This document shows positions 23,384-62,688 of a DNA stretch of 64,000 nt, piece by piece. A program made the position numbers and the translations under genes. The notes under the pieces were generated by a model, which worked only from the letters and a program-made list of their open reading frames with translations, had not been told where the DNA came from and did not search any database. Position 1 is the first letter of the stretch; each line of letters begins with the position of its first letter. Source of the stretch: an uncultured virus (IMG/VR IMGVR_UViG_3300050343_000130) (Duplodnaviria > Heunggongvirae > Uroviricota > Caudoviricetes > Crassvirales); IMG/VR virus record IMGVR_UViG_3300050343_000130; one strand, given 5' to 3'.

Positions 23384-23603
23384 GGAACTTATAAAAGTAG
23401 CTAAAGAAGATATTGTTGATTCAGACGATGATATATCAGCTGACAGATTAAAAAATGCCGCAGCCACTAAAAAGCTTGCAATTTTCGACGCTTTTGAGAT
23501 ACTTAACCGCATCGAGGAAGAAGAAAGAATTCTTGATAACAAACCAAAAAAAGAAGTTAAATCAACTTCGTTTGGTGGTTTTGCTGAAAATAGATCTAAA
23601 TAA
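23328..23603 (+). CDS. putative terminase small subunit
   Basis: Helical 91-aa ORF immediately upstream of terL. Confidence 0.45.
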   Translation: MNIKETKKNIIQAGHRAVEELIKVAKEDIVDSDDDISADRLKNAAATKKLAIFDAFEILNRIEEEERILDNKPKKEVKSTSFGGFAENRSK

Positions 23604-25823: not shown

Positions 25824-28255
25824 ATGGCAGGAGTAGTAAATAGTTTTTTCCCAAGTCAAGTCGCAAGTGACTCTGAGAAGATGTCACGAGACTACGGGCT
25901 CCAAGTTGGAAGAGCAATTCAGAATGAGTGGTTCTCGAACAACTCTGGTGTAACTAGATTCAGAAGTAATCAAAATACATTCCATAGCTTAAGGCTATAT
26001 GCAAGAGGTGAACAGCCTATACAAAAATATAAAGATGAAATGTCTATCAACGGCGATTTATCTTATCTTAATTTAGATTGGAAGCCAGTACCTATATTAT
26101 CAAAGTTTGTAGATATAGTTGTTAATGGCATAGCTGATAGATCTTTTGACCTTACAGCTTATTCTCAAGATCCATACGGGGTTAGCAAAAGAACCAAGTA
26201 TATGGAATCTATTATAAGAGATTTACAAACTGAAGAATTAAATGTATTTGCACAAGAAAATTTTGGTATAAATTTATTTGAAAACAATCCAGATAAATTG
26301 CCAGACTCTGAAGAAGAGTTAGATTTACACATGCAGCTAAGCTATAAGCAAGGGATTGAAATAGCAGAAGAAGAAGCTTTGAGTGTTATGTTTGACGAAA
26401 ACAGATATGACTTAACAAAGAAAAGATATTATTATGATATAACAACTCTAGGTATTGGTGCTGTTAAAAATAATTTTACAGAAGCAGAGGGTGTAACTGT
26501 AGAATATGTTGATCCAGCTTATTTAATTTATTCTTACACAGAGGACCCGTATTTTCAAGATATATATTATGCAGGCGAGGTTAAATTCGTGCCCTTAAAC
26601 GAGCTTAAAAAGCAGTTTCCGAACCTATCTGAGGAACAAATGGATCAGATACAATCACAAGGATCGCAAAATTATGGTGTTTGGAATAATAATATAAGTA
26701 ATACAAACAATAATAATAGAGATCAAAATATAGTTCAGATACTTTACTTTAATTATAAAACTTACATGAACGAAGTTTATAAAGTGAAAGAAACTGCAAC
26801 AGGCGCTTCAAAAATAATAGCAAGGGATGACCAGTTCAATCCACCTATTGAAATGTACGAAGAGCAATTTGGTAAAATGTCTAGATCACTTGAAGTATTA
26901 TACGAAGGTGTAATGGTATTGGGAACTGATATATTGCTTAAATGGGAAATGGCTAAAAACATGATGCGACCAAAAAGCGATAGCAGCTAAGGTTAAAATG
27001 AATTACGCTATAACAGCCCCTAGAATGTATCAAGGCAGAATAGAATCAATAGTAAGTCGTTGTACTGCTTTTGCTGATATGATACAATTAACACATTTAA
27101 AACTACAACAAGTATTACAAAGAATGATACCAGACGGTGTTTACTTAGATGCTGACGGTATAAATGAAGTTGATTTAGGTAATGGTACAAATTATAATCC
27201 TCAGGAAGCACTTAATATGTTTTTTCAAACAGGATCTATAATAGGTAGGTCGTTTACACAAGAGGGTGATATGAACCCTGGTAAAGTGCCAATACAAGAA
27301 GTACAGACTGGAAGCGGAGGTCAAAAGCTACAAACACTTATATCTACGTACAACTATTATCTTCAAATGATAAGAGATGTAACTGGATTGAATGAAGCAA
27401 GAGATGGTAGCACGCCAGATTCAAGAGCTTTAGTAGGTGTACAAAAATTAGCAGCAGCTAATTCTAACACAGCGACAAGACATATACTTGATGCAGGTTT
27501 ATATTTAACAAGAGAAACAGCGGAGTGTTTATCTTTAAGAATATCTGATATACTTGAATACCACCCAGCAAAAGAATCTTTTATTCAAAAAATTGGAGGA
27601 TTTAATGTAGCTACTTTAGATGAATTAAGGGATTTACATTTGCATGATTTCGGTATATTTTTAGAGTTAACTCCCTGATGATGAAGAAAAACAACTTTTA
27701 GAAAACAATGTTCAACAAGCATTATCAGCTGGATTAATTGATTTATCCGATGCAATAGATATAAGAGAGGTTAAGAATATAAAGTTAGCTAATCAATTAT
27801 TGAAAGTTAGACAAAAGAAACGTCAAGAAAGATTACAACAAGAACAGCAAGCAAATATACAAGCTCAAGCTCAAGCAAATGCACAAGCACAACAAGTAGC
27901 GGCACAAGCTGAAATACAAAAAGACCAAGCTTTATTTCAAACAAAGTCTCAATTAGAACAATTAAAAGGTCAAATTGAACAGCAAAGAATAGGCGTTGAA
28001 GTTGGTGCTAAAAAAGAATTGATGGCTTTAGAATTCCAATACAACATGCAACTAAAAGGTATGGAAGTTCAGAATGCTAAAGACAAAGAAAAAGAAATAG
28101 AAGATCGAAAAGATCAGCGTACAAGAATACAAGGTACACAGCAAAGTGAAATGATTGCGCAAAGAAAAAACGATACACCACCGACTAACTTCGAATCTGG
28201 AGGAAATGACACAATGGGAGGTGGATTTGGCTTAGGTGCTTTTGATCCTAGGTAA
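25824..28255 (+). CDS. portal protein (two apparent +1 frameshifts at ~26985, ~27673)
   Basis: Follows terL; PILSKFVDIVVNG, IRDVTGLNEARDG, Q-rich C-terminal coil. Confidence 0.8.
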
Positions 28256-33641: not shown

Positions 33642-36600
33642 ATGGCAGAATTAATACACACATTTACCTGGGAAAATGAACAAAGATCTTGATGAAAGAT
33701 TAGTTCCTAACGGTGAATATCGCGATGCTTTAAATTTAGAGATTGCCTCTTCTGATAATTCACAAGTCGGTTCATTTCAAAATATAAAAGGTAATAGAGA
33801 ATTATTCTATGAGTCTAAGCAACTTAAAAAACAGGTGCTTTTACTTTATGGAGTGGCAGTGATTATATAACATCACTAAGCAATCCTGTGTGTATTGGCG
33901 CAATCTCCGATGAAAATTCAGATGATATATATTGGTTTATAGCCTCAGATAATGTAAGTGCTATAGCTAAATATAATTCTATAACTCAATTAACACTCCC
34001 ATTACTTGTAGACACCCAAAACATTTTAAAATTTAGCAAAAATTATTTAATAACTGGTATTAACGTACTTGAGGGTATGTTATTTTGGACTGACAATCAA
34101 ACAGAGCCAAAAAAAATAATCATAAAAGATTGGGCACCGCCAGCTAATTTCTCTACTCATTCACAAATATATGGCAGAAACTTTATAGAATCTGATATAA
34201 CTGTTATAAAAAAATATCCTTTACAACCACCAACAATAACAACTTACTCAACTACGCAAAAGCTACCAGATGGCACTGTTGCTAATATTGATACTCAAAC
34301 ATTATTTTCTTTTACAAAAAACGTAGGGACTGTTGCAGCGCCTATAATAGCGCCTTTATCACCACAAGATGGGGCACAAACTTTAACCTGGCTAGGCAAT
34401 ACTCCTCCATACTACAAGGTTGGAGACATTTTAATATTTTCATTAGCCACCAATGATCCTTTAGATACAGATGCGGTTATAAAGTGTAAAGTATTAAGTG
34501 TTATTGGTGGAAGTACAAATCAAACAGGAGCATCAGTACAAGTTCTTACAGTAGGCCCAGGTTCTGAAACACAAACATTAGACCCCGGTTTATTTGATGT
34601 AACTCTTGAAGAAGACACACCGTTTTTTGAAATGAGATTTGCAAGGTTTGGTTATAGATACAAATATGAAAATAATGAAATATCTGCATTTTCTCCATTT
34701 AGCAATCCAGCCTTTATACCTGGAGCTTTTGATTACTCCCCAAGACAAGGCTATAATTTAGCTATGGTTAATAATGTTCGACAATTAACTATATCTAATT
34801 TTATTCCGTCTAATATTCCAGTGGATGTAATTAGTGTTGATATATTATACAAAGCTACCAACAATGCAAATGTATATGTGGTAGATACATTTACATCGAA
34901 TGATGATGAGTGGACTTCTAATAGCTTTAATATTGAAACAGAAATAATAACATCTGTTGTTAATGCTAATCAATTATTAAGACCATATGATAATGTACCT
35001 AAAGCTGCGTTAGCCCAAGAGATTACTGCCAATAGGCTTATATACGGAAATTACGTACAAAACTTTAATTTGTTAACTCCAAGCGGAGATACTTTACAGA
35101 CAATTTTAGCTATAGGTACTGATTCAAATGAACTTTTTGATCCAGTTACAAATAGTTTGACAAGCGTTACTATAGATAATGAGCAGGTTGCTGAATCAAT
35201 AAAATCACTAAGAACATACCAAGTGGGGGTTGCTTACATGGACGAATACGGTAGAACAACTCCTGTGTTTACAAGTAAAGAAGCTTCTGTTGTTATACCC
35301 AAAGAAGAGGCGCAATTTTCAAATAAGCTAACAGCTCAGTTAGCAAGCGCAATACCTTATTACGATCAGCAAAATCAATTTCCTTATTTTAAATACTATG
35401 TTAAGGAAACTTCTCAGGAGTATTATAATTTATGTTTAGATAGATTTTATGATGCTGAGGATGGTAATATATGGTTGTCTTTTCCATCGGCAGAAAGAAA
35501 CAAAGTAGACGAGGAAACTTTTATTATACTAAAAAAAGAGCATGATAATAATGATCCCGTAACTGAACAAGCTAGATATAAAATTATTGCAATTGAAAAT
35601 GAAGCTCCTCAATATTTAAAAGAAACAAAACTATCCATGGGGCTTCTTGCGACTACTTTTAATGTTGGTGGTTTTCCAATAGAAGGTGTTAATGAAATTT
35701 GGGTAGACAAAGACGACTTTGATGAACAATTTGGGGATACGACAAGAACGACCTCAGGTTTATTAATGAGGGTAACAGCGGGGGCAAACGTTAGTGAATA
35801 TTATAAAATAACCACGTTTGGATTAGCAGGAGCTAGCAATGCTTATGTTAGGTTACAGAGCTCTTCTGTTTTTGGCCCTGATATGAATTTCACGTCTACA
35901 TCACCTTATGGGTTTCCAAATGCAATTAGCGGTTTAAATTTAGAAATTTCAAGAGTTGAAATACAAAATAAACCAGAATTTACTGGTAGGTTCTTTGTCA
36001 AGGTGAATCAAGATGCTTTATTGGAACAAAAAATAGTAGCCGCATCTGCTAGTGCTAATGCTAACTATGCTAGAAAAGCATTAGGATACTGTTATTGGCT
36101 AACTGGCACTTATACGAGTGCTGGATTTTGGCAGGATTATTGGAAGAGGCCTGATGCGCAAGGAGCAACTAACAGGCTATTTATAGATAATATGCGCGCT
36201 GATTGTGAGCCTCGTGGAAACGGAGTAAATATAGCGGGCTCTATGGAATTAAGTTGGTCTGGTGGATATGGAGGATCAAGAGGTGATGGTATTAGATTGG
36301 AAAATCCAGCTTTATTAGAACAACTAGATAGCGGCGGAGTTTTATTTAGATTTATAGATGCAGGCAATGGTATATCAGATCCACAAGGCACAATATATCA
36401 AGTAACTAGCGTTACTAAATTAAGAGGTAATGTTTGGGATTGTAGTGACAACTGGTTTGACAACCATAGTGCATTTACAAATCAATTAACAAAATGGAAA
36501 ATAAAATTTAATGTAGCTAATGGATGGCAAGGTTTACAATGGGACCCTACTAATACCACAGATGGAATTGCGCCCTGGGTACAAAGTCAATCTAGTTATA

Positions 36601-38144
36601 ATAATGCCTATGTTGGAATTGAATTTATAGGTTTTGGAACAGATGATGATAGTTTTACAACAAATAATCCAGCTATATTTGAAACAGAACCAAAAGAAGC
36701 TGCAGAGCTTGATATATACTACGAAGTTCCCGGGTCTTATGCTAAATCAGAAGCGGGTAACGTGCATCAGTTAGATTTTTTTAATTGCTATTCATTTGGT
36801 AATGGTGTTGAATCAGATCGTATAAGAGATGATTATAATCAACCTACAATAGAAAATGGAGTTAAAGCATCGGCAACTTTAGACGAGCCTTATAACGAAG
36901 AACACAGAGGTAATGGCTTAATATTTTCACAAATATTTAATTCAACATCTGGTGTTAATGGTTTAAACCAATTTATACAAGCAGAATCTATTACTAAAGA
37001 TGTAAACCCAGAGTATGGTAGCATACAAAAGCTTTACTCTAGAGACACTAACTTAGTTACATTGTGTGAAAATAAGTCAATGAAAATATTGGCCAATAAG
37101 GATGCTCTATTCAATGCTGATGGCAGTTCCAACATTACATCTAATCAAGCGGTGCTTGGAGCGACTGTAACTTTTCAAGGAGAATTTGGTATTGCAACAA
37201 ACCCAGAATCATTTGCTGAATACGGATTTAGAATGTATTATACAGATGCGAATAGAGGAACTGTCATAAGACTTTCAAATGATGGCATTACAGAAATTTC
37301 AGATTACGGAATGCATGGATTCTTTTCAGATAACTTAAAATTAAACAGTAAGATTGTGGGTACATGGGATGCTGATAGAAGAAATTACAATGTTTCTTTG
37401 TCAACGCTTTCTCCGTACTGGCAACAAACATTAGGGGCTGGACAATTTGATAGGCTTAATAAAGATCCTTTATGTAATCAATTTGTTAATACATATCCAA
37501 CAACTTCTACAACTATTTCATTTAAAGAAGATGTGAATGGATGGACTTCTAGGAAAACTTATATACCAGAAGCCGGTGTGTTTTTGAATGGTGTTTATTA
37601 CACATTTAAAGCTGGTAGATTATGGGAACATAATAGTAACGCCTTACATAATACTTTTTATGGGACAGGACCAAATAGTGTTTCGCTGGGCGCTTATTAT
37701 GAAAGTTCTTTCAACGTTATATTTAACGAGCAGCCTTCTAGTGTTAAAGGATTTAAAACAGTAAATTATAGTGGTACTGCTTCTAAAGAATATGTGTATA
37801 AAATATTACCTAGTCTGAGGACTTATTCATTGGCACAAATTCAAGCACAACAATTAACACCTAATAATGTAACATCTACAGTCGGATGGTATACTAATTC
37901 TATTACAACGGATTTACAAGAGGGTCAAGTCAAAGAATTTGTAGATAAAGAAGGTAAATATTTTAATTACATAAGAGGATTGAATACTTTTTACAATACA
38001 AATTGTGATAACAATGTTGACTCCCATGAATTTAATGTACAGGGTATTGGAAGAGCATCTGCAATAAGCGGGAATGTAAATCCTACTGAATTTACAGTAA
38101 CAACTTCACTTGACGATAACTGTTTCCCTGATCCAACACCTTAA
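33642..38144 (+). CDS. tail stabilisation/nozzle protein (frameshifts at ~33670 and ~33820)
   Basis: GKMNKDLDERLVPNGEYRDALN N-terminus, GNGVESDRIRDD and FGIATNPESFA; ORFs 33676 and 33888 join. Confidence 0.7.
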
Positions 38145-41293: not shown

Positions 41294-42517
41294 ATGGCAA
41301 ATAACGCATTAATACAAGGAGCCGCTTTAACTGGCAGAAAATTTTTAGATGTTGGAGGTGCCGTAGCGCAGGGACTAGCCACTTCTATGGTAGCTGCTCC
41401 TGGGACTGCCCCAGCGGGTAGGGTGGCTGAAAATAAAGCAATACAAAATAAAGTGAATTCTTACATGAGTAAGATGAAAACTGATATGGATTTCACTAGC
41501 TTTAGCCCCTCTGAAACAAAAACAATGCGCAACTTTTTAATGAACCAGCGTAACATATATGCAAACGCTGCCAAAAAGGCTGCGGAATTCGAAGACACTA
41601 CGGATCCGAACTACATGCTATACGTAGATCAAATGCAAAACGTTAACAATAGCTTTACAAATTTAGCGTCTCAATTAAAATCTTATAAAGAAGGTAAGCT
41701 TGAATATGCTAAAACAATGCAAGAAGGTTTGTATTCAGATGGCAACTCACCACAAAGATCTAAAGAAGCATCTATCATATACGGATTTTATGACAGTGAT
41801 GGTGATGGCAGAAGTGAAGCTAGATACGACGCACCTTTTCAAATACAAGATGGAGGTAATATAGCTTTCAATGTAGGTGGTCAGGACATATCCTATAATA
41901 GCATGGAAGAACCATTTCTTAAAGATACTAAATTTTTAAACGGATTAAATACAACTTCTGAAAATGCTTATAACTCAGGTTTGAGCGGCAAGCCTAATAA
42001 TCCATACTCACAAGATTCTTACAACCAGCAGCTAAACGACGCTTTGCAAAATGAAAATACTTTAAGGTCGATTATATATGATTTTAATGCAGAGGCACCT
42101 ATGTCCGATATCGGTAATAGTTTAGATAATGGCAGTATAGATATACCTCAAGCTAGAGAATTAGTTAAGCAAAGACTTCTTCAAACAAGAGAAGATGCTT
42201 ATAAAAAAGGCAAAAAACAATATGACAAAAAGAAAGAAGGGTTAGGCTCGCAAGGCTTTAATTTAAGTGGAAGTCAAATTGCATCTAATAACGAAAACAC
42301 TGAAATATTAAATGCATGGGCCAGTGACACTACTATAACTGGACCCAAGAAGTTTAATTATATTGTAAGATCACCTAGGTCAAGAGCAACAACAACTCAG
42401 CGAGCGTATGAAATAAGTAAAACTGCTGATGGAAGATATTTCTTAATAAGCAATGGAAGACCAGAAGCCTTAAGCCCAGAATTAGCAAAAGAAATGTTTA
42501 ATATAGATTTAAAATAA
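41294..42517 (+). CDS. putative ejection/internal virion protein 2
   Basis: Position and helical composition. Confidence 0.55.
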   Translation: MANNALIQGAALTGRKFLDVGGAVAQGLATSMVAAPGTAPAGRVAENKAIQNKVNSYMSKMKTDMDFTSFSPSETKTMRNFLMNQRNIYANAAKKAAEFEDTTDPNYMLYVDQMQNVNNSFTNLASQLKSYKEGKLEYAKTMQEGLYSDGNSPQRSKEASIIYGFYDSDGDGRSEARYDAPFQIQDGGNIAFNVGGQDISYNSMEEPFLKDTKFLNGLNTTSENAYNSGLSGKPNNPYSQDSYNQQLNDALQNENTLRSIIYDFNAEAPMSDIGNSLDNGSIDIPQARELVKQRLLQTREDAYKKGKKQYDKKKEGLGSQGFNLSGSQIASNNENTEILNAWASDTTITGPKKFNYIVRSPRSRATTTQRAYEISKTADGRYFLISNGRPEALSPELAKEMFNIDLK

Positions 42518-42528
42518 AATATAATATT

Positions 42529-45500
42529 ATGCCAAAATATACAGATTCAAATGGTAACGTTGTTTCAGAAGAACAGGTTGCTCAGGATATGGCTATAGTC
42601 GAGTTTACTGATTTACAAACTTACTTAGAATTTGCAGGCTTAAAGCCAGTAAAGGAAAACGGAGTTGCGGAGACGGGTGCGTCTGCGGCTCCAGACAACA
42701 ATCAAGCGCTCAATCAAAAGGGAGTAGATACGGGATCCAATTGGGATCAAGATTCTTTGGATACGTCAAATACTGAAGAAGCAAAGCCAATTGACAATGT
42801 TCGCTATATAAAATTCAAAAGCGGTGCTGTAGTTTATGAAGATGAATATTTAGATAAATATGCTGGCACTGAAAGGTTCCCAGCCAGCTTTGATGATTAT
42901 GCCGCAAAATTTAAAACAAAACCTATCACACCTTCTCCGTCTAATGTAGAGCTAGAAGAAGTTGTGGTTGAAGCAAAGCTTAGTCCTGAAGTAAAAAAAG
43001 CGCAAGATAATGCAATCAAATACGTTCAAACAATTGATAGCAAAAATGAAATAACTTTAAAGGGTGAAATAGGTATTAATTACTTTAACCTTACTGACGA
43101 GTATAATGGTATTGGAAAACTTGAACCTAAGTTTAAAAGAGAGCAGCAATTTAAAACTCTTCCTGGCGGGAGAAAATCAGGGTATTCAGAATATGTTAAT
43201 GATATTGATACAGATTTTAAAAATGAACTAGGTGAAACTAAATACAATCAATGGCAAGCTATATTAAAAGCAGCAGGAGATACAGTAATAACTAAAGAAA
43301 ATATTGCTGAATTTATAGATTTAGCTAAAATAGATAATGCTACTAAATCTGAAGTTGTAAATTCTGCTAAGAATAAAGCTTCGGAATTATTTATATACGA
43401 TAATGATTTATCTGAAGCTGAGCAGGAAAAAATGTTAATGAACCTGCCTTATAGCTCAAAGACTAAAGCGGCTATGCGGGAAGAGGTTGCCAAAAGAAAA
43501 CAAGATGAAATTGATTTTGAAAATAAATTTGGTAGAACTTTAGTAAGAGAAGAAACACTACAAGGTAGAACTTATAAGCCTTATTCGCTTGCGGTGAATG
43601 AAAACATGTTCGACGATATCATAGCAAAAGAAAACGCAACTTTAAAAACTGATTTTGAAGCAATAAATATTGACGCTAAAAAATTTATATCTGCACAAAA
43701 TGATTTTACACAAGTAAGATCTCAATATGAAAACGAATTAATTGATTTAGAAAATCAAATAAAAAATTATTCAACAGATAATTATTCTTCTCCAGAAGAA
43801 ATAAATATTAGAAATTCATTTGTAACAAGATATAATGACATTTTGTCCTTAGCTAACTCTGAAGCCATGCAGTCTCAATGGAAAGACCTAACCGCATCTA
43901 GGGCTGAATTAAAAGAAAGAAGTGACGCTTTGACATTAAGAGCTAAACAACTTAATGATTTAAATATAGGTGCTGGCGCAATTGGCAAAAGTTATGAATT
44001 AGGAGATCAGTTCGCCCAAGTAATGGAAGAAAGCTTTTTAGGAACTTCCGCTATGTTAGGAGGGTCTGTTTTTAAGTTAATTGGTAATATTGCAACCATA
44101 GGACAAACAGAAGACGAGGCAATGCAGAATAGCTTTTATAGGGATATGAAAGATATGAAAATGGCAGCCGTTGATTATAATGAAAGACTTCAAAAAAGAA
44201 GGGAAAATTATTTGCCTTCGCGAATTGAATGGGACGATAAAGAGGCTGGATGGGGTGATTACGTAAGCACTATGCTGGTTGAAAATTCTCCTTCTATACT
44301 AACTGCTATGGGTACATTAGGGGCAAGCTCTGCTGGTGTTTTATCAGTAAAGGCAGCCACTAACGTTGGTACAGGCATATTTTTTGTTATGGAAGCTGGA
44401 GGCCAAATGTCAGGACTAGAAATAGCGCAAAGAAATGCAGATGAAATAATATTGTCTTTAAATGAAGAGCTAAAAACAGCGGTAGGTGACTCTGAAAAAA
44501 GAGAAATACAAAGACAAATTCAAGAGCAAAAAGATATATTAAATTTATCTCAATGGAAAAAATCATTAAGTAGCTTGGTATACGGAGGTACAGCTGCTGT
44601 GGCAGAACGGTTTGGTACATTAAATTTTATAAATAATTTTCAAAAATATTCTAGAGCTATTGGGGCTAACCAGTTTAAAAAGTTAGTCGGCGATGGCATG
44701 GCTAGAACATTAGCTAAAACAACAGGAACGATTGCTGGCGTTGGAATGGGAGGAGGAATAGAACTGCTAGAAGAAGGTTTTACTTTAATCGGCCAAAACA
44801 TATCAGATGTTGCTATATTAAAAGAAGATAAAAATATATTTGAGGGATTAGACAAAGATTTTATTGCGAACACATTAGCTACAAGCATGGCTATATCCGG
44901 CCCTCAAGCTTCTCAAAATATATATTCTATTGTAAAGTCAGAAGTAATATCTAGAAGGGAAGCAAGAGAGGAATCTAAACTTAGAGACGAAATATTAGGC
45001 TTACAAAATAGTATAAACGGAGATAAACTTACTGCGGAAGAAAGAAAGAGAGCAAGGAGAAAGAAGTACGAACTAATGACAGAATTAGGTTTACAAAATA
45101 CAGAAGCTGTATTAAAAATAAACGATATGACTGCTCAAGAGTTTGAAAATGTAACCGAAATTAATAGAGAAATGAGAGCTTTAGAAAACGAAGCCTCACA
45201 GTTAGGGGCCGGAGGAGACGTTTCTGGTTATGCCTTGAATGAATTAAAAAATTTAAAATCTAAATATAAAGATTTAATATCTCAGAGAGAAGCCATACTT
45301 GAAAGGCAAAAAAATGAAATAGACAAGTTATTTGATAGCGATGGCGAATTAAATGTAAACAAACAATATTCGGCTCAGTTATTTAATTTTGCTAAAAATA
45401 TAATTAAAAATAATAAAGGCACAAAAAGTCAAAATTTTACCACAAGTGCAGATGCTATAAAATTTATTAAAGAAAATCATTCAAAATGGTTTGCTGATTT

Positions 45501-48500
45501 AAATGATCAAGATAAAAAAGATTTTGAAAGCGGACAATGGGGAGGACTAAACATCGGTAATAATATATATACAAACCAAGAGTCTGTGTATAATGATATT
45601 AATACTGGTAATTTAAGAGTTGGGCAAATGGCAGCGATGTCACCTTTGCATGAACTCGGCCATATTCAAGCTGTCAAAGCAGGAATAATAAAAGACGAGA
45701 AATTTGTTGGAGACGCGAACGCTATGATAAATGGCGTAAAACAAGAGGTTGCTAACTTATTTAATCAAAGAAAAATATCAGCTGAGGATTATAAATTATT
45801 CCAAGATAGAATGGCCCAGTATATAGACGCTAATACAGGCCAAGTAAATGCAGATGAACTAATACAACTTATCGGAGACTTCACTAATTTAGGTATATTA
45901 CCAAGAAGTTCTTTTAATAGTGTTTTTGAAATTAAAAACTTTGTTAGTAATTTAATGAAGAAGGCAAATGGTGATGCGGAAATGTATTTTAGATTTAATA
46001 AACCAGAAAACGTATTTGGTTTTGTTAATTCTTGGACAAAAAAAGCTATTGGTGGAAAACAATTAGGTGGTATTGAAGATAAAGAAAAAAGCAAAGCTAA
46101 GCTAAGTAAATCTCAAGTACAACTTGAAAAAACAAAAGCTAAGTTTAAAGAATTAGAATCTAATTTCCAATCAGGAGCAGCCCAAAATGCGATAGCTAGT
46201 GAGTTGTTTAACATGGTTGACACACAAATTGGTAATAGATTTAATTTAAGGCCACAAGTAAAACAAGATCTTAGAGATGATGTAATTGAACGAATATATA
46301 AAGCACAAGAAACTACAAAATGGGACGGTAGAGGTAGCTTATATGGCTTTATAAACGGTCGTATTGCTAAAAGAATACTTGATGCTTTAAGAGGTGATCA
46401 ATCTTATTTGGAAAATATTGATAATAATCAATTTGAGCAATTAGAAAAAGCAGCAGCTGTAGTGGTGGAGGATAAACCTGTTACTCAAAAAGCAAAACCA
46501 CAATATAAAAATTTATTAAAAAGTAATGTGCTATCTAGCGAAGCTATAGCAAATATAAATTCAAAAGTATTAACAATAGTACGAACGCTTAAATCTAAAT
46601 TAAACGAAAAAATTTCTAATAATAGAACCGTTACACCTTTAATCGCTGAGATTAAAAAAGAAATGGGGAAGCAGGCTGATATTGATTTAAAGAAAGCTAT
46701 GGGCGGTATTAAAGATAATGCCATACAGAAATTTCTTACTAAAAATAAAAAAGCTATATTAGAAAACATGACCACTACGTGGTTAATGGGTGCTATCCCA
46801 AGTGCTGTACAAAAGCAAGTTGATGGAAAGTTTATATCTAATTGGAAAGGCCAAAAAATTGATAGAGAAACCGTTGGAACAGATAATGCGGGTAGAACAT
46901 CTGGCGCGGAAATAACACGAAGAAAGCCAAATGTAGCATCAATGCCTGATGCGGAATTCTTAAGTTATTTTATTGCTGACAATAAACTCATTAGAGGCAG
47001 GAAAGAATCACTTGCTAAAGCAATGGCTGAAGAAATATCTTTAGAAATATTTAACACTGAGCTACAGAATGAAAATAGCGAGATAAGCAAGGCTTTTGAA
47101 CAAAATCAAACATTAAAAGGTGTAGAGCTATTAGACAATTATATAGTAGAAGTTGCTAAACAAACAGAAAGAGGAAATGCTAAGTTTAGCAAATCACTAA
47201 GTGCTAACGAGGCTAATATTGTAAAAAGTAAAGCGAATCAATTAAAAAATAAGTTAATAAAAGCTGATGTAAAATTAACTGCCAAAAGATTATTACCATT
47301 TTTAATAGACACGTACCCTGAAATAGACGAAAAAAGATTAAAATCTTTTGCTACAGAAGCTATACAATCTATACAAAGATATATTAAAAAAATTGAAATA
47401 ACCGATAAAGTTGATTTTGGTAATTTTATTTTTGAAGGGATGTCTTTAAAAGAAAGCAATAGTAATTTATTAAAGTTTTTTGGATTTTTAAAAAATGATG
47501 TAGAGTCTTTAGGTGCGTTGTTTAATAACCCTGATCTTATAGCAGAACAAAGGGGTCTTGAGCTTTCTTATAATACTAATTTAATTTTAAAAGAAGGCGC
47601 TGATGGATTAATAAAAATATTAAGATGGGGAAGGGGCCATAATGTTACTTCAGGAAAAATTGGTGGTGGTAGAAATCAAATTTATGCAGGCAACCCCGAT
47701 TATTTAGATAATAATTTAAATAATATACCAGATGTTGAAGTAGTTTATAAAAAAGGCAAATCAACTTCTATTAAAGCTGTTTTCTATAAAGGTATTGAAG
47801 TAGAAAAATGGAAAGAAAGGATACAATCCCCAGCCCAAAAACCCGCAGGTGGAATAGAAGGCTTTAGAAAGGATTCTCAAATTAGAGAAGATGCTGCAAG
47901 AGAAGCGTGGACTTACTTAACGGACTATCTACAACACGTAAAAGATAACGGCTCTAAAATAAACTGGGTCATGACTATGATGAGTTTGAAATCGAACATG
48001 TCATCCGTCCTTAAAGCGGCGGCTCCTGTTAAGTATTACTTTAACGGTAATTACAAAGGGCCATTAAGGTATGAGCATATGATACCTACCGAATACATGG
48101 TGCTAAAACTTACCGACTATTATTATAATGGCAAAAGCTTTGATTTAAATACCTTAAGGGACAAGTATAATGTTGCTATTATTCCTGTAATAATGGACAA
48201 TAATTTTAACGTTCTTACTCAGTCTCAAATGAACAGTTCGTTTGATCCAATGGTTGATTCCGAAGTTGATAGATATTTTAATGAAAACACCTATGGATAT
48301 CCTAATATGTTTCCTATAGAATCTTTAACCGGAGAAACTAAGGGTAATATTGAGGGTGAAACTTGGGTAAAATTTAACAACGTTTTAAAGCCACAGGCTG
48401 CGAAAATGTCTAAGTCAATGCGTATAGCAGATAAGGCTATGAACGCTGCTAGAATGCCAGACTACGGAGTAAACCCAAAAGGAATTAGTGTTTATGACTT

Positions 48501-51188
48501 TGACGATACTTTAGCTTTTAGTAAAAGTAAAATTATTGTAACTATGCCCGACGGTAAAGTTACTAAGATCACACCTGCTGAATTTGCAGCTAAAGACGAA
48601 ATACTTTCAGAACAAGGAGCGTCTTTTGATTTTAGTGAATTTAACAAAGTTGTTCAAGGTACTAAAGGGCCATTAGCAGCTAGACTAGAAAAAGCAATAA
48701 AGAAATTCGGCAATAAAAATATATATGTTTTAACTGCTAGGCCACAAGCGTCAGCACCTGCTATATACGAATTTTTAAAAGGTATTGGTTTAGAAATACC
48801 ATTAGAAAATATAACTGGATTACAAGACGGAAGACCTTCTGCTAAAGCTGACTGGATGATTGAGAAATTTTCAGAAGGTTACAATGATTTTTATTTTGTA
48901 GATGATGCATATAAAAATGTTAAAGCGGTGCAAGATGTGTTAAGTGTTTTAGATGTGAAGTCTAAAGTGCAGCAAGCTAGAGCAAAATTCAGTAGATCAT
49001 TAAGTTCTGAGTTTAATAAAATGATTGAACGTAACAAAGGTGTTACTGCTGAAGCTCAATTTTCAAATGCTGTTGCTAAAAGAAGAGGAGCTAATATTGG
49101 TAAATACAAATGGTTTATACCATCGTCGGCTGATGACTTTAGAGGATTGACACAATATACTTTTGCAGGTAAAGGAAAACAAGGTGAAGCAGATCAAGCG
49201 TTTTTTGAAAAAGCTTTAATGGATCCCTACTTCGCGGGAATATCTGCTATTGAATCATCGAGACAGATGATGAAAAATGCTTATGCTAATTTGTTAAAAC
49301 AAATGAAGCCAGTAAGAAAGAAGCTTAATAAATTAATACCTGATACAAGCTATACTTATGATCAAGCTATAAGGGTTTATTTATGGAACAAAGCAGGATA
49401 CGATATTCCAGGTTTATCTAAAAGAGATTTAAAAAAGTTACTTAGTATAATTAATAATGACTCGGATTTATCGGCGTTCGCTGATGGGGCTTTGTTATCT
49501 TCTAAGCAAGATCAATGGTCCGAACCCTCTGAGCACTGGCAAGCTGGGACTATACTTAAAGATTTAAATGAGTTAACTGAAAAAGTAAATAGAAAAGAAT
49601 ACTTAGGTGAGTTTATAGCTAATTCAGAAATATTATTCAGTCCTGAGAACATGAACAAAATTGAAGCTTTATATGGATCTAGACATAGGGAGGCTTTAGA
49701 GGATGCACTATATAGAATGCGTAATGGGACTAATAGACCATCGGGTGGCAATAGATTAACAAACGCGTGGAATAACTGGGTTAATAATTCTGTAGGTACT
49801 ATTATGTTCTTCAATAGAAGATCGGCTTTATTACAGTTATTATCAACAGTAAACTTTATAAATTGGTCTGATAATAATCCGTTAAAAGCTAGTATAGCTT
49901 TTGCTAATCAGCCACAATACTGGAAAGATTGGGTTAGAATATTTAATTCTGATAAACTAAAGCAAAGACGTGGTGGTTTAAAATCAGATATACAAGAGCA
50001 AGAGATAGCGAGTCAGGCTAAAAACTCTAAAGATAAGTCATCAGCTATAATAGCTTACTTATTAAAAATAGGTTTTACGCCAACACAAATTGCAGATAGT
50101 ATGGCCATCGCAACAGGTGGAGCAACGTTTTATAGAAATAGAATAAACACGTACCTTAAACAAGATATGTCAAAAGAAGAAGCTGAAGCAAAAGCTTGGG
50201 CAGACTTTAGTAAAATATCAGACGAAGCACAGCAATCGGGTGACCCGGCTTTAGTATCTCAACAGCAAGCTAGTGTCCTAGGTAGATTAGTGTTAGCTTT
50301 CCAAAATACACCTATGCAATATACTAGGTTAATGAAAAAAGCTGGGCTTGACATTATAAACAGACGTGGTGATTTTAAAACAAATTTTAGTAAAATAATA
50401 TATTACGGTGCTGTTCAAAACTTTATATTCTCAGCGTTGCAGAATGCATTGTTTGCTATGATTCCTGGGTTTGATGATGAAGAAGAAACTGAAGAAGATA
50501 AGAAAAAGAAAGAAAACCAAAAGACTGGCAGAATAATACATAGTATGGTAGATACTATATTAAGAGGATCTGGTTTAGCCGGAGCAGTTGCAACTACCAC
50601 TAAAAATACTATTAGAAAATTTTTAGAGCAAGAAGAAAAAGGTTTTACCGCAGATCATACCTACACTATTATTGAAGCGGCTAACATATCACCACCTATA
50701 GGATCTAAATTAAGAAAACTATACGGAGCAATACAAACATGGAAGTTTGATAAAGACGTTGTTAAGGAAAGAGGTTTTGATGTTACTTTAAATGGTAAAT
50801 TAAACATTAGCCCAACATACAATATAATAGGTAATCTGTCATCTGCTTTAGTAAACTTACCGCTTGATAGAGCTTTAATGGAAGTTGAAGGTATTGTTGA
50901 AGCGTTAGATGAAAGAAATACTTTATACCAAAGAATAGCTTTAGCTTTAGGTTGGAGAACTTGGGGTGTGGGTGCTAAAAATGAAGAAGAAGATCTTATA
51001 AAGGATGCTGCTAAAGCAAAAAGAAAAGAAGAAGGAAAATTAAAAGCAAAAGAAACTAGAAGAGTTAATAAAGATGCTTTATAAAACTTGAATTAGAAAT
51101 AGATGGTGATAATTTTATTGAGTATTATGAATGGAAAAAAGGTAAAAGTATCAAAGATAAAATAGAATGGCTTAAATCAAAAAAATAA
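42529..51188 (+). CDS. giant polyvalent ejection protein: metallopeptidase + sigma-like + unknown + HAD phosphatase + C-terminal domain (ORF ends 51084; likely frameshift extends to 51188)
   Basis: HELGH at 45649; sigma region-2-like segment 46200-46400; DFDDT/LTARP/VDD HAD motifs 48496-48910; four AK[LFM]S[KR]S linkers. Confidence 0.75.
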
Positions 51189-61935: not shown

Positions 61936-62688
61936 TTAAAGATAATCAATTACTTGGTTGCTGTCGACATTAGCGATTAAATGGTCGATTGCTTCTTTTT
62001 TAATCTGCGAAACTATAACAGTTGCAGTCGGAACTTTGAGACCAATATAGTCTGCTATTTCTTTTGCAGAATGTTTGTTGCAATCTAAACCATAAAATAA
62101 TCTAACTACGTCGTATTGTTTTGATGTTAAATGTTCTTGCATTAGACTAAGCAAATAAGTGTTTAGTAAAGCTATGTTATATGGCTCGGACTTATCAGGT
62201 AATTGATAAGCAAAGTTATCTTCATCGGCTGGTGTTATATCATAACTTGAAAACATACTATTAAAAAACAACGCTACCATCTTATCATCTTTAGGGTTCT
62301 TGCGTATTTCATTTAGCTTGTGTTCTGGTATTTTAATATCGCCTCTGTTAATATCTATTGATCTTCTTATAGCTCCTTTAATTCTTTTACTTAGAAATGA
62401 CTTCAATGTTTTTTCAATGTCCTCTGATTCGTTTAAAACATCCCAGTCTAATCTGTCCACAGCTTTAGTTAATCCTGCACCGCCTTCTTGCAATAGATCA
62501 TTGATACTTAAAACTCCCGAAGCCTGCTGTGTTGTTGAAAACTTGCGAGCTAGATTTTCTACCAACGGCAGAAATCTAATTATAAGTTTATCTCTTGATA
62601 ATTCACTATAGCCAATGTCTTCATCAGGCATAGATGACTTAACATCTTCTTTATACCTAATGTAATTCTGTATATTATATTTTTTCAT
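61936..62688 (-). CDS. sigma70-family RNA polymerase sigma factor
   Basis: Region 2 LPLVENLARKF...DLLQEG..GL.KAVDR...IKGAIRRSI; region 4 LT.KQ.DVV.LFYGL...SAKEIA. Confidence 0.85.
   Translation of the reverse strand: MKKYNIQNYIRYKEDVKSSMPDEDIGYSELSRDKLIIRFLPLVENLARKFSTTQQASGVLSINDLLQEGGAGLTKAVDRLDWDVLNESEDIEKTLKSFLSKRIKGAIRRSIDINRGDIKIPEHKLNEIRKNPKDDKMVALFFNSMFSSYDITPADEDNFAYQLPDKSEPYNIALLNTYLLSLMQEHLTSKQYDVVRLFYGLDCNKHSAKEIADYIGLKVPTATVIVSQIKKEAIDHLIANVDSNQVIDYL

What the first reader, a model, noticed from the sequence alone, without database searches (positions are those of the whole stretch)
42529..51188. Giant ejected protein looks like a self-cleaving polyprotein: HExxH protease plus four AK[LFM]S[KR]S linkers at domain boundaries
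Seen: HELGH (45649-45663, aa ~1041) with a downstream DE (NADEL). The hexapeptides AKLSKS (46096, aa 1190), AKFSKS (47179, aa 1551), AKMSKS (48400, aa 1958) and AKFSRS (48982, aa 2152) recur. They divide the protein into an N-terminal membrane/protease part, a ~360-aa sigma-like piece, a ~405-aa unknown piece, a ~195-aa piece containing just the HAD domain, and a ~700-aa C-terminal piece. Known: large polyvalent phage proteins with zincin metallopeptidase domains are thought to be injected with the DNA. Inference: the zincin cuts at this motif and releases a kit of effector proteins, in the virion or after injection.
Basis: partly seen in the sequence, partly recalled or inferred. Interest (0 to 1): 0.92.

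Follow-up and report, generated by a model that had tools for sequence, protein, structure and literature searches.

The report
Phage giant protein with repeated junction motif
A 2,851-residue phage protein carries one conserved zinc-protease motif and a short peptide repeated exactly at the borders between its swappable modules, which looks like a built-in cutting code for releasing a kit of injected proteins, though cutting itself has not been shown.

Summary
ORF 42529-51084 (2,851 aa) has AKLSKS, AKFSKS, AKMSKS and AKFSRS at aa 1190, 1551, 1958 and 2152, and a single HELGH at aa 1041. No shuffle of 5,000 gave two or more such motifs.

The protein belongs to a large metagenome-only family of marine phage giant proteins, with 1,474 hits. 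All 120 listed homologs and all 70 complete IMG/VR genes have exactly one HExxH.

The motif generalises to [VAI]-K-x-S-x-x-[L]:
- It sits at homology breakpoints: 42 of 109 internal HSP ends, against 4.6 expected.
- It sits in or at the edge of predicted coil linkers.
- It is kept at the protein level, with serine codons mixing AGY and TCN.
- It changes in concert at all junctions of a lineage (KFS, KRS, KES, KSS, KFSE, MFSRD, KFKR).

Cleavage is inferred, not shown. Nothing ties the motif to the zincin beyond co-occurrence: motif type does not track zincin similarity.

The HAD piece resembles the T4 Pnkp 3'-phosphatase. The "sigma-like" label is unsupported.

Iyer et al. 2017 already proposed zincin autoprocessing of polyvalent proteins; the explicit junction code is the new part.

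The parts
42529..51084 (+). Giant ORF, 2,851 aa including the stop codon; a phage-type polyvalent protein
   Evidence: 1,474 homologs at E<=1e-3 among 8,000 scored candidates. No PHROG, Pfam or PDB sequence hit for the whole protein.
51084..51188 (+). Frameshifted tail: the last 34 codons plus stop of the gene as found in close relatives, here in the next reading frame
   Evidence: The translation of this frame equals the C-terminus of P0001/P0002.
42529..45348 (+). N-terminal region, aa 1-940: largely helical, with conserved Gly-rich blocks at about aa 590-780; function unknown
   Evidence: The A1 consensus. Model 1 covers aa 581-940 as helices of low confidence. The highest hydropathy peak is only 1.36.
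45349..46053 (+). Zincin-like metallopeptidase domain, about aa 941-1175. HELGH lies at 45649-45663 and the putative third ligand E1110 at 45856-45858
   Evidence: H1041, E1042 and H1045 are invariant in 52 of 52 sequences and E1110 in 51 of 52. There is one HExxH in 120 of 120 and 70 of 70 homologs. In model 1 local residues 361-540 have pLDDT of about 80-90, with strands 386-390, 426-429 and 432-436, HExxH in helix 458-470 and E530 in helix 528-540.
46096..46113 (+). Junction J1, AKLSKS (aa 1190-1195), directly after the zincin module
   Evidence: It lies in the pLDDT<50 coil at local 600-617 of model 1. 8 internal HSP ends fall within +-12 aa. Homologs carry lineage-matched variants here.
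46114..47178 (+). Module 2, aa 1196-1550. The C-terminal 250 aa are among the best conserved parts of the family; function unknown and not demonstrably sigma-like
   Evidence: Many invariant and near-invariant columns at aa 1324-1554. No Pfam hit. Weak TFIIB-like Z 7.4 for aa ~1217-1320.
47179..47196 (+). Junction J2, AKFSKS (aa 1551-1556), at a fixed distance after the conserved ...ERGN of module 2
   Evidence: K1552 and S1554 are conserved in at least 90% of A1 sequences. It lies in the pLDDT<50 coil at local 969-975 of model 1. 15 HSP ends fall here.
47197..48399 (+). Module 3, aa 1557-1957: a confident alpha/beta fold of unknown function, absent or replaced in many homologs
   Evidence: Model 2 local 1-300 has pLDDT of 80-92. 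It is swapped out in many homologs. No Pfam hit.
48400..48417 (+). Junction J3, AKMSKS (aa 1958-1963)
   Evidence: It lies at the start of helix local 306-323 of model 2, where block pLDDT is 68 then 62. 10 HSP ends fall here.
48418..48981 (+). HAD-superfamily phosphatase module, aa 1964-2151, most like the 3'-phosphatase domain of T4 polynucleotide kinase/phosphatase
   Evidence: VIA-align matches 5uj0_B (Z 12.3, rmsd 2.8, 128 aligned), 4xrp_A (Z 11.8) and 1ltq_A (Z 11.7), over model range 331-501 = aa 1982-2152. Foldseek finds HAD phosphatases at probability 1.00 and E about 0.03. The DFDDT motif is visible. Homologs insert or substitute a P-loop kinase of the AAA_33/Zeta_toxin families.
48982..48999 (+). 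Junction J4, AKFSRS (aa 2152-2157), at a fixed distance before the conserved C-terminal domain
   Evidence: It lies in the pLDDT<50 coil at local 501-505 of model 2. 9 HSP ends fall here. It is present upstream of the C-terminal domain even where the preceding module differs.
49000..51081 (+). C-terminal domain, aa 2158-2851: all-helical and the most conserved part of the family; function unknown
   Evidence: More than 100 invariant columns. Model 2 is helical throughout this range. BFVD gives distant matches to giant phage proteins annotated PolyVal/LPD/MuF-C. The Atlas leads LPD39 and LPD38 were not confirmed by HMM.
41294..42517 (+). Conserved upstream neighbour, 407 aa, function unknown. 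A gene of this size class precedes the giant gene in most related loci
   Evidence: many loci show a stop-to-stop ORF of about 360-520 aa ending just before the giant ORF. Homology among these ORFs was not tested. No PHROG or Pfam hit.

Best explanation
The gene encodes a phage-type polyvalent protein: one long polypeptide, probably packed in the virion, that strings together swappable effector modules.

Order of parts:
- N-terminal helical region plus zincin (aa 1-1189)
- conserved module 2 (aa 1196-1550)
- unknown alpha/beta module 3 (aa 1557-1957)
- a Pnkp-like 3'-phosphatase (aa 1964-2151)
- a conserved helical C-terminal domain (aa 2158-2851)

The hexapeptides [AVI]-K-[F/L/M]-S-[K/R]-S lie in the exposed linkers between these parts. 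They are a conserved junction signal read at the protein level.

The most likely reading is that they are endoproteolytic processing sites, probably cut next to the invariant Lys (K|F). Cutting would separate the modules after assembly or after entry.

The resident zincin is the most economical candidate for the protease. It is the only protease-like element, is present exactly once in every family member, and is followed directly by junction J1.

Shown: the motif's existence, its placement at module borders and in linkers, protein-level selection on it, its concerted lineage-specific variation, and zincin conservation.

Inferred: that the sites are cut, where the scissile bond lies, that the zincin cuts them (my odds about 0.35-0.4), and that the protein is packaged and ejected.
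For: 1. The motif is non-random. No shuffle of 5,000 had two or more copies.

2. It marks the borders.
- 42 of 109 internal BLAST HSP ends against 51 non-redundant homologs fall within +-12 aa of the four motifs, against 4.6 expected.
- J1, J2 and J4 lie in pLDDT<50 coil between confident folds, and J3 at the start of a pLDDT 60-68 helix.
- The structural match to the Pnkp phosphatase ends at aa 2152, exactly J4.

3. It is conserved. K and S of J2 are at least 90% conserved. A J4 motif precedes the C-terminal domain even when the upstream module is a kinase or something else.

4. It is selected as protein, not as a DNA repeat. The four window copies differ at synonymous sites, and the first Ser uses AGT, AGC, TCT and AGT. 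The same AGY/TCN mixing is seen within genes of other lineages.

5. It varies in concert within a protein.
- The residue after K is the same at J2 and J4 in 43 of 51 non-redundant proteins.
- Over five positions, same-protein identity is 2.41 against 1.25 +- 0.1 after shuffling partners; 0 of 10,000 shuffles reached the observed value.
- Distant lineages carry 3-4 copies of their own variant: KFSK, KFSE, MFS.D, KFKR, QFSK, I.FSK, VAFS, VKSS.

6. It is exclusive to the giant protein. There are 66 copies in 20 giant proteins (57,188 aa) and none in 65,488 aa of flanking ORFs. The patterns were chosen from the giants.

7. The zincin is conserved. There is one HExxH in 120 of 120 and 70 of 70 homologs. 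H1041, E1042 and H1045 are invariant and E1110 is present in 51 of 52. The secondary-structure order is zincin-like at pLDDT 80-90.

8. The gene is kept whole.
- 70 of 80 IMG/VR loci hold one complete ORF of 2,312-4,044 aa.
- One locus is split by a frameshift away from any junction, and 9 are cut by locus ends.
- Of 108 shorter hits, the 32 I picked from contigs of about 10 kb or longer all start or end inside modules.
- This fits a need to make and load the modules as one chain.

9. Precedent: Iyer et al. 2017 (PMC5512222, passages read) argue that zincin MPTases process polyvalent proteins, and cite processed P1 DdrB.
Against: - No cleavage product has been observed, and no proteomic data exist for this family. 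It has no member in the 50,697-record phage collection by tblastn.
- Motif type does not follow the zincin. The Spearman correlation of motif similarity with zincin similarity is 0.003 (partial 0.026, permutation p 0.32), against 0.48 with module 2 and 0.16 with the C-terminal domain.
- The KRS variant forms one clade of 9 proteins that carry at least three zincin sequence types: HEIGH, HELLH and HEVGH/HEVSH.
- The window protein and P0011 share 94% identical C-terminal parts but have different zincin classes.
- No convincing specificity-determining zincin column was found.
- With phylogeny controlled and F/non-F coding, the J2-J4 covariation is underpowered: 7 independent pairs, J4 following in about 3.3 and unchanged in about 3.7, median p 0.25.
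- J3 is predicted helical rather than coil.
- The N4 virion RNA polymerase, a zincin-bearing polyvalent protein, is packaged unprocessed according to Iyer et al.. So a zincin in such a protein does not by itself imply self-cleavage.
- Fold membership of the zincin rests on motif and secondary structure only. Whole-model fold searches gave no zincin match.
Confidence: 0.5

Rival explanations
1. The junction motifs are processing sites, but they are cut by a protease other than the resident zincin. This could be a host protease met in the periplasm or cytoplasm, or another phage protein. The zincin would then act on host targets, or only on its own C-terminal junction.
For: Motif variants are inherited with module 2 and the C-terminal half, not with the zincin (rho 0.003 against 0.48). 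Zincin cassettes of different classes are exchanged on otherwise near-identical proteins. Iyer et al. list host-targeting as an alternative role for these MPTases. The invariant Lys before the variable residue would also suit a Lys-specific serine protease (inference).
Against: No other protease family was detected among 51 window ORFs by PHROGs, or among 15 by Pfam. The motif is absent from all flanking virion genes, unlike substrates of prohead proteases. The zincin is retained exactly once in 190 of 190 family members examined. A host protease would have to co-vary with phage lineages to explain the switches among KFS, KRS, KES and KFSE.
Confidence: 0.17
2. The motifs are not cut. They are conserved linker elements with another role: a short docking or recognition peptide read by a common partner (for packaging into the head, threading through the tail, or binding a host factor), or simply the preferred seams at which modules are recombined.
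For: All evidence here is about placement and conservation, which any border-specific signal would satisfy. The gene is never found split at a junction. The N4 vRNAP precedent shows a polyvalent protein delivered uncut. J3 is predicted as part of a helix.
Against: A recombination seam should be conserved as DNA, but synonymous sites and even serine codon families differ between copies. A 6-9 residue motif in disordered linkers that changes in concert at every junction of a lineage is what polyprotein cleavage sites look like (inference from RNA-virus polyproteins and MARTX toxins, recalled). Modules with unrelated activities (a nucleic-acid end phosphatase, a protease, unknown enzymes) are unlikely to share one place of action, the argument made by Iyer et al..
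Confidence: 0.25
3. The repeats are a chance or low-complexity feature of a Lys/Ser/Ala-rich protein.
For: The protein is rich in K (9.5%), A (8.7%) and S (6.7%). Some pentamer reaches 4 copies in 5 of 50 shuffles.
Against: The specific hexamer never occurs twice in 5,000 shuffles. It is conserved in position across homologs down to about 40% identity and coincides with homology breakpoints, 42 against 4.6 expected.
Confidence: 0.01

Closest known systems
Phage-type polyvalent proteins with zincin-like MPTase domains (Iyer, Burroughs, Anand, de Souza, Aravind 2017, J Bacteriol; PMC5512222, passages read)
   Same: It is a giant multi-module protein in the late/virion gene block of a phage. It has one HExxH-plus-Glu zincin and unrelated enzymatic cargo (a Pnkp-like phosphatase, and kinases in homologs), with rampant module swapping. 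The authors already propose that the MPTase processes the chain into functional units. BFVD gives distant structural matches to proteins annotated PolyVal/LPD, and the Atlas gives LPD leads.
   Different: No Pfam PolyVal/LPD/MPTase model matches, even at E<=5 on the separate pieces. The passages I read give no cleavage-site motif: 'linker' occurs 0 times and I read 12 of 30 'cleav/process' places. Here an explicit, lineage-covarying junction peptide is defined. The family is absent from cultured phages in the collection searched.
MARTX toxins of Vibrio, with an internal cysteine protease domain that releases effector domains (recalled, not looked up here)
   Same: It works alike in outline: one huge chain with conserved delivery parts at the ends, an interchangeable effector cassette in the middle, an in-chain protease, and short cut sites in inter-effector linkers.
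   Different: The protease class differs (Cys protease activated by inositol hexakisphosphate, against a zincin). The organism and delivery route differ, and there is no sequence or fold relationship. Cleavage here is unproven.
Processing of packaged and ejected head proteins by prohead proteases: T4 gp21 on internal proteins/Alt, phiKZ gp175, SPN3US gp245 (the SPN3US paper PMC10052503 was seen as a search listing and abstract only; the rest is recalled)
   Same: Short consensus sites in proteins that travel inside the capsid and are ejected, with cleavage occurring during head maturation.
   Different: Those sites occur in many different head proteins and are cut in trans by a dedicated prohead protease. 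Here the motif is confined to one protein, and no prohead protease family was detected in the window.
Phage P1 DdrB (processed) and N4 virion RNA polymerase (unprocessed), as discussed by Iyer et al.
   Same: Both are zincin-bearing proteins packaged in phage heads. DdrB is known to be shortened before packaging.
   Different: No sequence similarity was detected, and no multi-site junction code has been described. N4 vRNAP shows that the zincin need not imply self-cleavage.
T4 polynucleotide kinase/3'-phosphatase (Pnkp) and the Pnkp1 RNA-repair enzyme (PDB 5uj0, 1ltq, 4xrp)
   Same: The aa 1982-2152 module superposes on their HAD phosphatase domain (Z 11.7-12.3) and has the DxDxT motif. Homologs add a P-loop kinase, recreating the kinase-plus-phosphatase pair.
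   Different: The window protein has the phosphatase alone. Sequence identity is 13-18%. No HAD Pfam model passes, and activity on nucleic-acid ends is inferred from fold ranking only.
RNA-virus polyproteins with cis-acting proteases (recalled)
   Same: There are multiple short sites in linkers, all changing together with lineage, and a protease that sits next to one of its own sites (J1 follows the zincin).
   Different: This is a dsDNA tailed phage. The products would be accessory or delivery proteins rather than the replication machinery. The protease-site pairing is not evolutionarily locked.

Membership tests
Phage-type polyvalent protein (Iyer et al. 2017) | One polypeptide combining several unrelated globular or enzymatic domains, encoded by a phage among late/virion genes | tested here: met
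   A zincin, a Pnkp-like HAD and at least three further modules. The gene lies between a muzzle-like/virion block and the amidase lysis gene.
Phage-type polyvalent protein (Iyer et al. 2017) | Match to the family's curated domain models (MPTase-PolyVal, LPD1-40) | tested here: inconclusive
   No Pfam hit for the whole protein at E<=0.01 or for six pieces at E<=5. The Atlas feature search gives LPD23/LPD1 for the zincin piece (0.93, 157 shared features) and LPD39/LPD38 for the C-terminal piece, as leads only. BFVD hits to PolyVal-annotated proteins have E of 1e-5 to 1e-3 and TM about 0.2.
Zincin (gluzincin-type) metallopeptidase | HExxH in a helix, plus a downstream Glu in a second helix as third zinc ligand | tested here: met
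   H1041, E1042 and H1045 are present in 52 of 52 and E1110 in 51 of 52. The model places HExxH in helix local 458-470 and E530 in helix 528-540.
Zincin (gluzincin-type) metallopeptidase | Core fold of a three-stranded sheet with flanking helices, superposable on solved zincins | tested here: inconclusive
   Three short strands precede the HExxH helix at pLDDT 80-90. Fold searches could only use the 1,200-residue model and returned no zincin.
Zincin (gluzincin-type) metallopeptidase | Peptidase activity | not testable with these tools
   Needs an enzyme assay.
Self-cleaving polyprotein | Discrete products with termini at the junction sites | not testable with these tools
   No proteomic data are available. 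Placement, conservation and covariation are compatible with cleavage.
Self-cleaving polyprotein | Protease and cleavage sites co-evolve | tested here: not met
   Motif similarity against zincin similarity gives rho 0.003, partial 0.026, p 0.32. One KRS clade carries several zincin types. No specificity column was found. No pair of zincin regions of 80% identity or more among the nearest neighbours listed carries a radically different motif, so the test does not exclude co-adaptation.
HAD-superfamily phosphatase, Pnkp 3'-phosphatase type | HAD Rossmannoid fold with the DxDxT nucleophile motif | tested here: met
   DFDDT follows the first strand. VIA-align gives Z 12.3, 11.8 and 11.7 to T4 Pnkp and Pnkp1 phosphatase domains, followed by about 45 other HAD enzymes at Z 8.7-11.2. 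Foldseek gives probability 1.00.
HAD-superfamily phosphatase, Pnkp 3'-phosphatase type | Match to curated HAD sequence models; polynucleotide substrate | tested here: inconclusive
   No HAD Pfam family at E<=5; only DUF2608 at 0.016. The Pnkp hits lead other HADs by about 1 Z unit only. The substrate is not testable here.
   No sigma Pfam model at E<=5. The best structural rows are TFIIB/Brf1 cyclin-like folds at Z 6.7-7.4, below the tool's own noise guide of 8. A separate phage sigma factor gene exists at 61939-62688.
Prohead-protease substrate set (T4 gp21 / phiKZ gp175 type) | A dedicated prohead protease gene, and the same site in several head proteins | tested here: not met
   No protease PHROG among the 51 window ORFs. 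The motif is absent from other window ORFs except one loose hit, and absent from 65,488 aa of flanking ORFs in 20 loci.
crAss-like virion RNA polymerase polyprotein | Two-barrel RNAP domain within the giant virion protein; crAss-type structural module | tested here: inconclusive
   The upstream 1,418-aa protein hits crAss_MUZ_C below threshold, 25.1 against 27 bits. No RNAP family or PDB sequence match was found for the giant protein. DxDxD-type RNAP motifs were not examined specifically.

The most novel reading that the evidence does not exclude
The junction peptide may be a portable, lineage-programmable release code that also sets the lifetime of each released module.

If the bond cut is K|x, the new N-termini would be F, Y, L, M or W in most lineages and R, E or D in others. 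Of the 103 J2/J4 sites tallied, F, R, Y, E and L account for 95. These are the residue classes that bacterial N-degron pathways (ClpS/ClpAP, and the Aat and Bpt transferases; recalled, not tested here) treat as destabilising.

The phage would then inject one chain that cuts itself into a kit of early effectors, each born with a built-in degradation timer. This would resemble nsP4 of Sindbis virus (recalled).

The concerted F-to-R or F-to-E switches would then be re-tunings of that timer or of the protease pocket.
Probability: 0.1. Interest if true: 0.85.

Novelty: new variant of a known kind. Interest (0 to 1): 0.62.

Why it matters
Polyvalent proteins are thought to be the first weapons a phage or plasmid delivers. 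How one chain becomes many working parts has been a proposal without a defined site.

This family offers a concrete, testable code:
- a short peptide at every module border
- kept by selection on the protein
- rewritten in concert in different lineages
- next to a universally retained zincin

If cleavage is confirmed, three things follow:
- It gives the first cleavage-site consensus for a polyvalent protein.
- It gives a rule for parsing thousands of unannotated giant phage ORFs into functional units.
- It gives a natural scaffold in which cargo such as a Pnkp-like end-healing phosphatase or kinase, plausibly countering RNA-cutting defences, is swapped between fixed delivery parts.

If cleavage is refuted, the motif remains an unexplained border signal read by something unknown.

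The family is abundant in marine viromes, with 1,474 or more proteins and 588 or more IMG/VR stretches, yet it has no cultured representative in the collection searched.

Tried and rejected
- **Whole-protein look-ups.** PHROGs, Pfam, PDB sequences by phmmer, and tblastn against 50,697 phage records all gave nothing. The C-terminal domain alone against phages at E<=0.01 gave nothing. A profile of alignment A4 against PDB sequences gave only coiled-coil noise.
- **Fold searches with the two 1,200-residue models.**
  - Foldseek against PDB on model 1 returned helical-repeat noise at E>=0.02.
  - VIA-wide on model 1 returned helical hairpins and a TFIIB-like match at Z 7.4, and no zincin.
- **Complex prediction** of the zincin domain (aa 935-1185) with a 53-aa J2 peptide and Zn scored 0.02 against a mark of 0.32. 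The verdict was 'no answer', and I do not count it either way.
- **Alignment A2** (fragment aa 1001-2200) misaligned the HExxH and was dropped in favour of A3/A4.
- **Specificity-determining zincin residues.** The best column was acidic in 13 of 14 R-type against 27% of F-type sequences. It lies in a poorly aligned stretch about 95 residues upstream of HExxH and is acidic in S- and E-type proteins too, so I rejected it.
- **Natural split genes at junctions.** None was found.
- **DNA-level repeat or gene conversion** as the source of motif similarity is rejected by the synonymous differences.
- **Prohead-protease sites** are rejected because the motif is absent elsewhere.
- **Maribacter phage Panino.** Its syntenic 1,829-aa gene has no HExxH, no motif and no BLAST similarity, so it is a different giant protein in the same position.
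- **QKYSRAI at aa 705-711** fits K-x-S-[KR], but it lies inside a conserved block and stays KYS in KRS-type proteins. I did not count it as a junction.
- **Other look-ups.** Earlier scan findings returned nothing, and no whole genome is held.
- **Literature.** Four searches found no described cleavage motif for polyvalent proteins. Two more searches, for Cellulophaga phage virion proteomes and for Tenacibaculum phage Gundel_1, found no proteomic data on this family. Subscription journals are not covered.

Full report
**What is there**

The window is a phage genome segment. It carries a holin, tail fibres, GroEL/GroES, a large terminase, a portal, a capsid-type virion protein, a muzzle-like 1,418-aa protein, an amidase, ribonucleotide reductase, thymidylate synthase, a primase-helicase, Erf and a sigma factor.

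By its capsid protein, its nearest cultured relatives are podophages of Flavobacterium, Cellulophaga and Maribacter, at 43-48% identity.

The finding's ORF starts at 42529 and stops at 51084, giving 2,851 aa. In the window a 1-nt frameshift near 51080 moves the last 34 homologous codons into the next frame.

All five sequence features are at the stated coordinates, and the piece sizes are 1,189, 355, 401, 188 and 694 aa.

**Is it more than chance?**

AK[LFM]S[KR]S never occurred twice in 5,000 shuffles of the protein. Elsewhere in the window, the looser pattern occurs once, in a portal fragment. By my own estimate from residue frequencies that is about what chance gives.

A fully unbiased repeated-pentamer search is less impressive. 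'AK.SK' x4 is the top repeat, but shuffles reach four copies of some pentamer in 5 of 50 runs. The case therefore rests on placement and conservation.

**The family**

The whole protein has no PHROG, Pfam, PDB-sequence or cultured-phage match. The 5.8-billion-protein collection holds 1,474 relatives at E<=1e-3 among 8,000 scored candidates. I examined the 120 listed, which are 2,068-3,304 aa long.

IMG/VR holds at least 588 matching stretches. I kept the best 80 loci:
- 70 carry one complete ORF of 2,312-4,044 aa.
- One locus (L002) is split by a frameshift at about aa 1810, away from any junction.
- 9 are cut by locus ends.

Every one of the 120 plus 70 proteins has exactly one HExxH.

In an alignment of the query with 51 non-redundant relatives (chosen by sharing less than 45% of 5-mers), H1041, E1042 and H1045 are invariant and E1110 is present in 51 of 52. 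The most conserved parts are aa ~1300-1554 and the C-terminal 694 aa.

**The motif marks module borders**

BLAST of the query against the 51 representatives gives 109 internal HSP ends. Of these, 42 lie within +-12 aa of the four motifs: 8 at J1, 15 at J2, 10 at J3 and 9 at J4. Only 4.6 are expected from the 4.2% of the length those windows cover. A further cluster at aa ~2000-2013 is a P-loop kinase inserted into the cap position of the HAD domain in some homologs, not a junction.

I ran two AlphaFold2 models with family alignments. Model 1 covers aa 581-1780 (mean pLDDT 63) and model 2 covers aa 1652-2851 (mean pLDDT 67).
- J1 falls in a pLDDT<50 coil, local 600-617 of model 1.
- J2 falls in a pLDDT<50 coil, local 969-975 of model 1.
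- J4 falls in a pLDDT<50 coil, local 501-505 of model 2.
- J3 falls at the first turn of a helix, with pLDDT 68 then 62.

The flanking modules are confident folds: the zincin at 80-90, module 3 at 80-92 and the HAD at 60-80.

**The motif is conserved, protein-selected and changes in concert**

Across the family the consensus is [N/R/K/T]-[V/A/I]-K-[F...]-S-[K/L/I/M]-[S/G/T]-[L]. J2 follows the conserved ...ERGN of module 2 at a fixed distance. J4 precedes the conserved start of the C-terminal domain at a fixed distance, whatever lies upstream (HAD, kinase or other).

The four window copies differ at synonymous positions, and the first serine uses both codon families. The same holds in other lineages. 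So this is not a DNA repeat or a product of gene conversion.

Within a protein the junctions resemble each other more than they resemble junctions of other proteins.
- The residue after K is identical at J2 and J4 in 43 of 51 proteins.
- Five-position identity is 2.41 against 1.25 +- 0.1 for shuffled partners; 0 of 10,000 shuffles reached the observed value.
- Examples: VKSSIAP/VKSSIAP, VKESKGL/VKESKGF, KYSLGL/AYSLGL, VKRSA.. /VKRSA...
- More distant IMG/VR lineages carry three or four copies of their own variant: KFSK, KFSE, MFS.D, KFKR, QFSK, I.FSK, VAFS.

These lineage motifs occur 66 times in 20 giant proteins and never in 65,488 aa of flanking ORFs. The patterns were picked from the giants, so only the zero is informative.

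With phylogeny taken into account the picture is weaker but in the same direction.
- On a tree of module 2 plus the C-terminal domain, KRS is a single clade of 9.
- With F/non-F coding there are only 7 independent contrasts. J4 follows J2 in about 3.3 of them, never goes the opposite way, and the median p is 0.25.
- The number of independent concerted switches to the same residue is about six by my reading of that tree.

**Who reads the motif?**

The zincin is the only protease-like element, is universal, and is followed directly by J1. But the comparative data do not tie the motif to it.
- Motif similarity correlates with module 2 (rho 0.48) and the C-terminal domain (0.16), but not with the zincin region (0.003; partial 0.026; p 0.32).
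- The zincin-bearing N-terminal half is itself a swappable cassette whose 3' border is at or near J1 (HSP starts at q1106-1190 in many homologs).
- The query (HELGH) and P0011 (HEMLH) are 94% identical downstream. The KRS clade carries HEIGH, HELLH and HEVGH/HEVSH zincins.
- No pair of zincin regions of 80% identity or more among the listed nearest neighbours carries radically different motifs. The closest such pairs are 54-57% identical. So co-adaptation is not excluded.
- I found no credible specificity-determining column.
- A complex prediction of the zincin with the J2 peptide gave no verdict.

I therefore hold 'these are processing sites' at about 0.65-0.7 overall. That splits into best explanation 0.5 and rival protease 0.17. 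'The zincin cuts them' stands at about 0.35-0.4.

**What the modules are**

- **HAD module.** aa 1982-2152 superposes best on the 3'-phosphatase domains of T4 Pnkp (5uj0_B: Z 12.3, rmsd 2.8, 128 residues; 1ltq_A: Z 11.7) and of Pnkp1 (4xrp_A: Z 11.8). About 45 other HAD enzymes follow at Z 8.7-11.2. Foldseek agrees on the HAD fold. Homologs add an AAA_33/Zeta_toxin-type P-loop kinase inside or in place of it. This recreates a Pnkp-like pair. An end-healing role against RNA-cutting host defences is an inference from T4 biology (recalled).
- **Module 2.** It is not demonstrably sigma-like.
- **Module 3 and the C-terminal domain.** BFVD links the latter distantly to proteins annotated as polyvalent.
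- **N-terminus.** It has no convincing membrane helix.

**Relation to what is known**

Iyer et al. 2017 defined polyvalent proteins and proposed that their zincin MPTases process them into units. They cite processed P1 DdrB and unprocessed N4 vRNAP. In the passages I read they give no site motif, and 'linker' does not occur in the text. Four literature searches found no such motif described. Two further searches, for virion proteomes of related flavobacterial phages, found no proteomic data on this family.

The defined, co-varying junction code in a large uncultured family is new. In working principle the closest analogue is the MARTX toxin design (recalled).

**Verdict**

The module-border reading is well supported. 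Self-cleavage by the zincin is plausible but unproven and lacks covariation support. This is a new variant of a known kind, with a clear bench test.

Noticed in passing
window 51070-51188: The giant ORF is cut short by an apparent 1-nt frameshift. The last 34 codons found in 94-96% identical relatives are intact in the next frame and end at 51188.
   Followed up: yes
window 25824-28255 and 23603-25819: The portal is spread over three consecutive ORFs in three successive frames (25824-26990, 26998-27678, 27800-28255) that together cover PHROG 6547 almost end to end. The large terminase is broken into 23603-24388 and 24710-25819, and the missing middle (including an LLVHDESGK stretch) is readable in another frame. 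This looks like indel errors in the assembly or a decaying genome rather than introns.
   Followed up: partly
window 17141-18745 and 22790-23383: The phage encodes its own GroEL-type chaperonin (PHROG 5725, E 1e-137; Pfam Cpn60_TCP1) and a GroES-like co-chaperonin.
   Followed up: no
window 61939-62688 (-): A separate phage sigma-factor-like gene (PHROG 351, E 9e-16) lies in the early/replication block. This argues against needing a sigma inside the giant protein.
   Followed up: no
window 41294-42517: A 407-aa gene of unknown function sits immediately upstream of the giant gene. Many related IMG/VR loci also show an ORF of about 360-520 aa just before the giant ORF. It may be a partner in packaging or ejection. 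Homology among these ORFs was not checked.
   Followed up: partly
L002:5657-13682: The closest IMG/VR relative (94% identity) has the giant gene in two overlapping ORFs (1,810 + 883 aa). The break is at about aa 1810, inside module 3 and not at a junction, so it is probably a frameshift.
   Followed up: partly
P0054 aa ~2020-2230; P0084 aa ~1960-2165: In some homologs a P-loop kinase (AAA_33/Zeta_toxin families) is inserted into the cap position of the HAD domain. In others the kinase stands alone between two junction motifs (FKFSIGS ... AKYSTGL).
   Followed up: partly
L001:31744-37233 (Maribacter phage Panino): The syntenic position holds a 1,829-aa gene annotated 'tRNA methyltransferase'. 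It has no HExxH, no junction motif and no BLAST similarity to the window protein, so a different giant protein occupies the same slot.
   Followed up: yes
window aa 705-711 of the giant ORF (nt ~44641-44661): QKYSRAI fits K-x-S-[KR], but it lies inside a conserved block and does not switch in KRS-type homologs. It serves as an internal negative control for the covariation.
   Followed up: partly
window 33888-38144: The 1,418-aa virion protein hits the crAss muzzle C-terminal domain just below Pfam's threshold (25.1 against 27 bits). This hints at a distant link between this podophage group and crAss-like tail architecture.
   Followed up: no
P0027 aa 2105-2198: One homolog carries a T6SS immunity-protein-like domain (PF21576 Tgi2PP, 27.1 bits, at threshold) at the start of its C-terminal part.
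   Followed up: no
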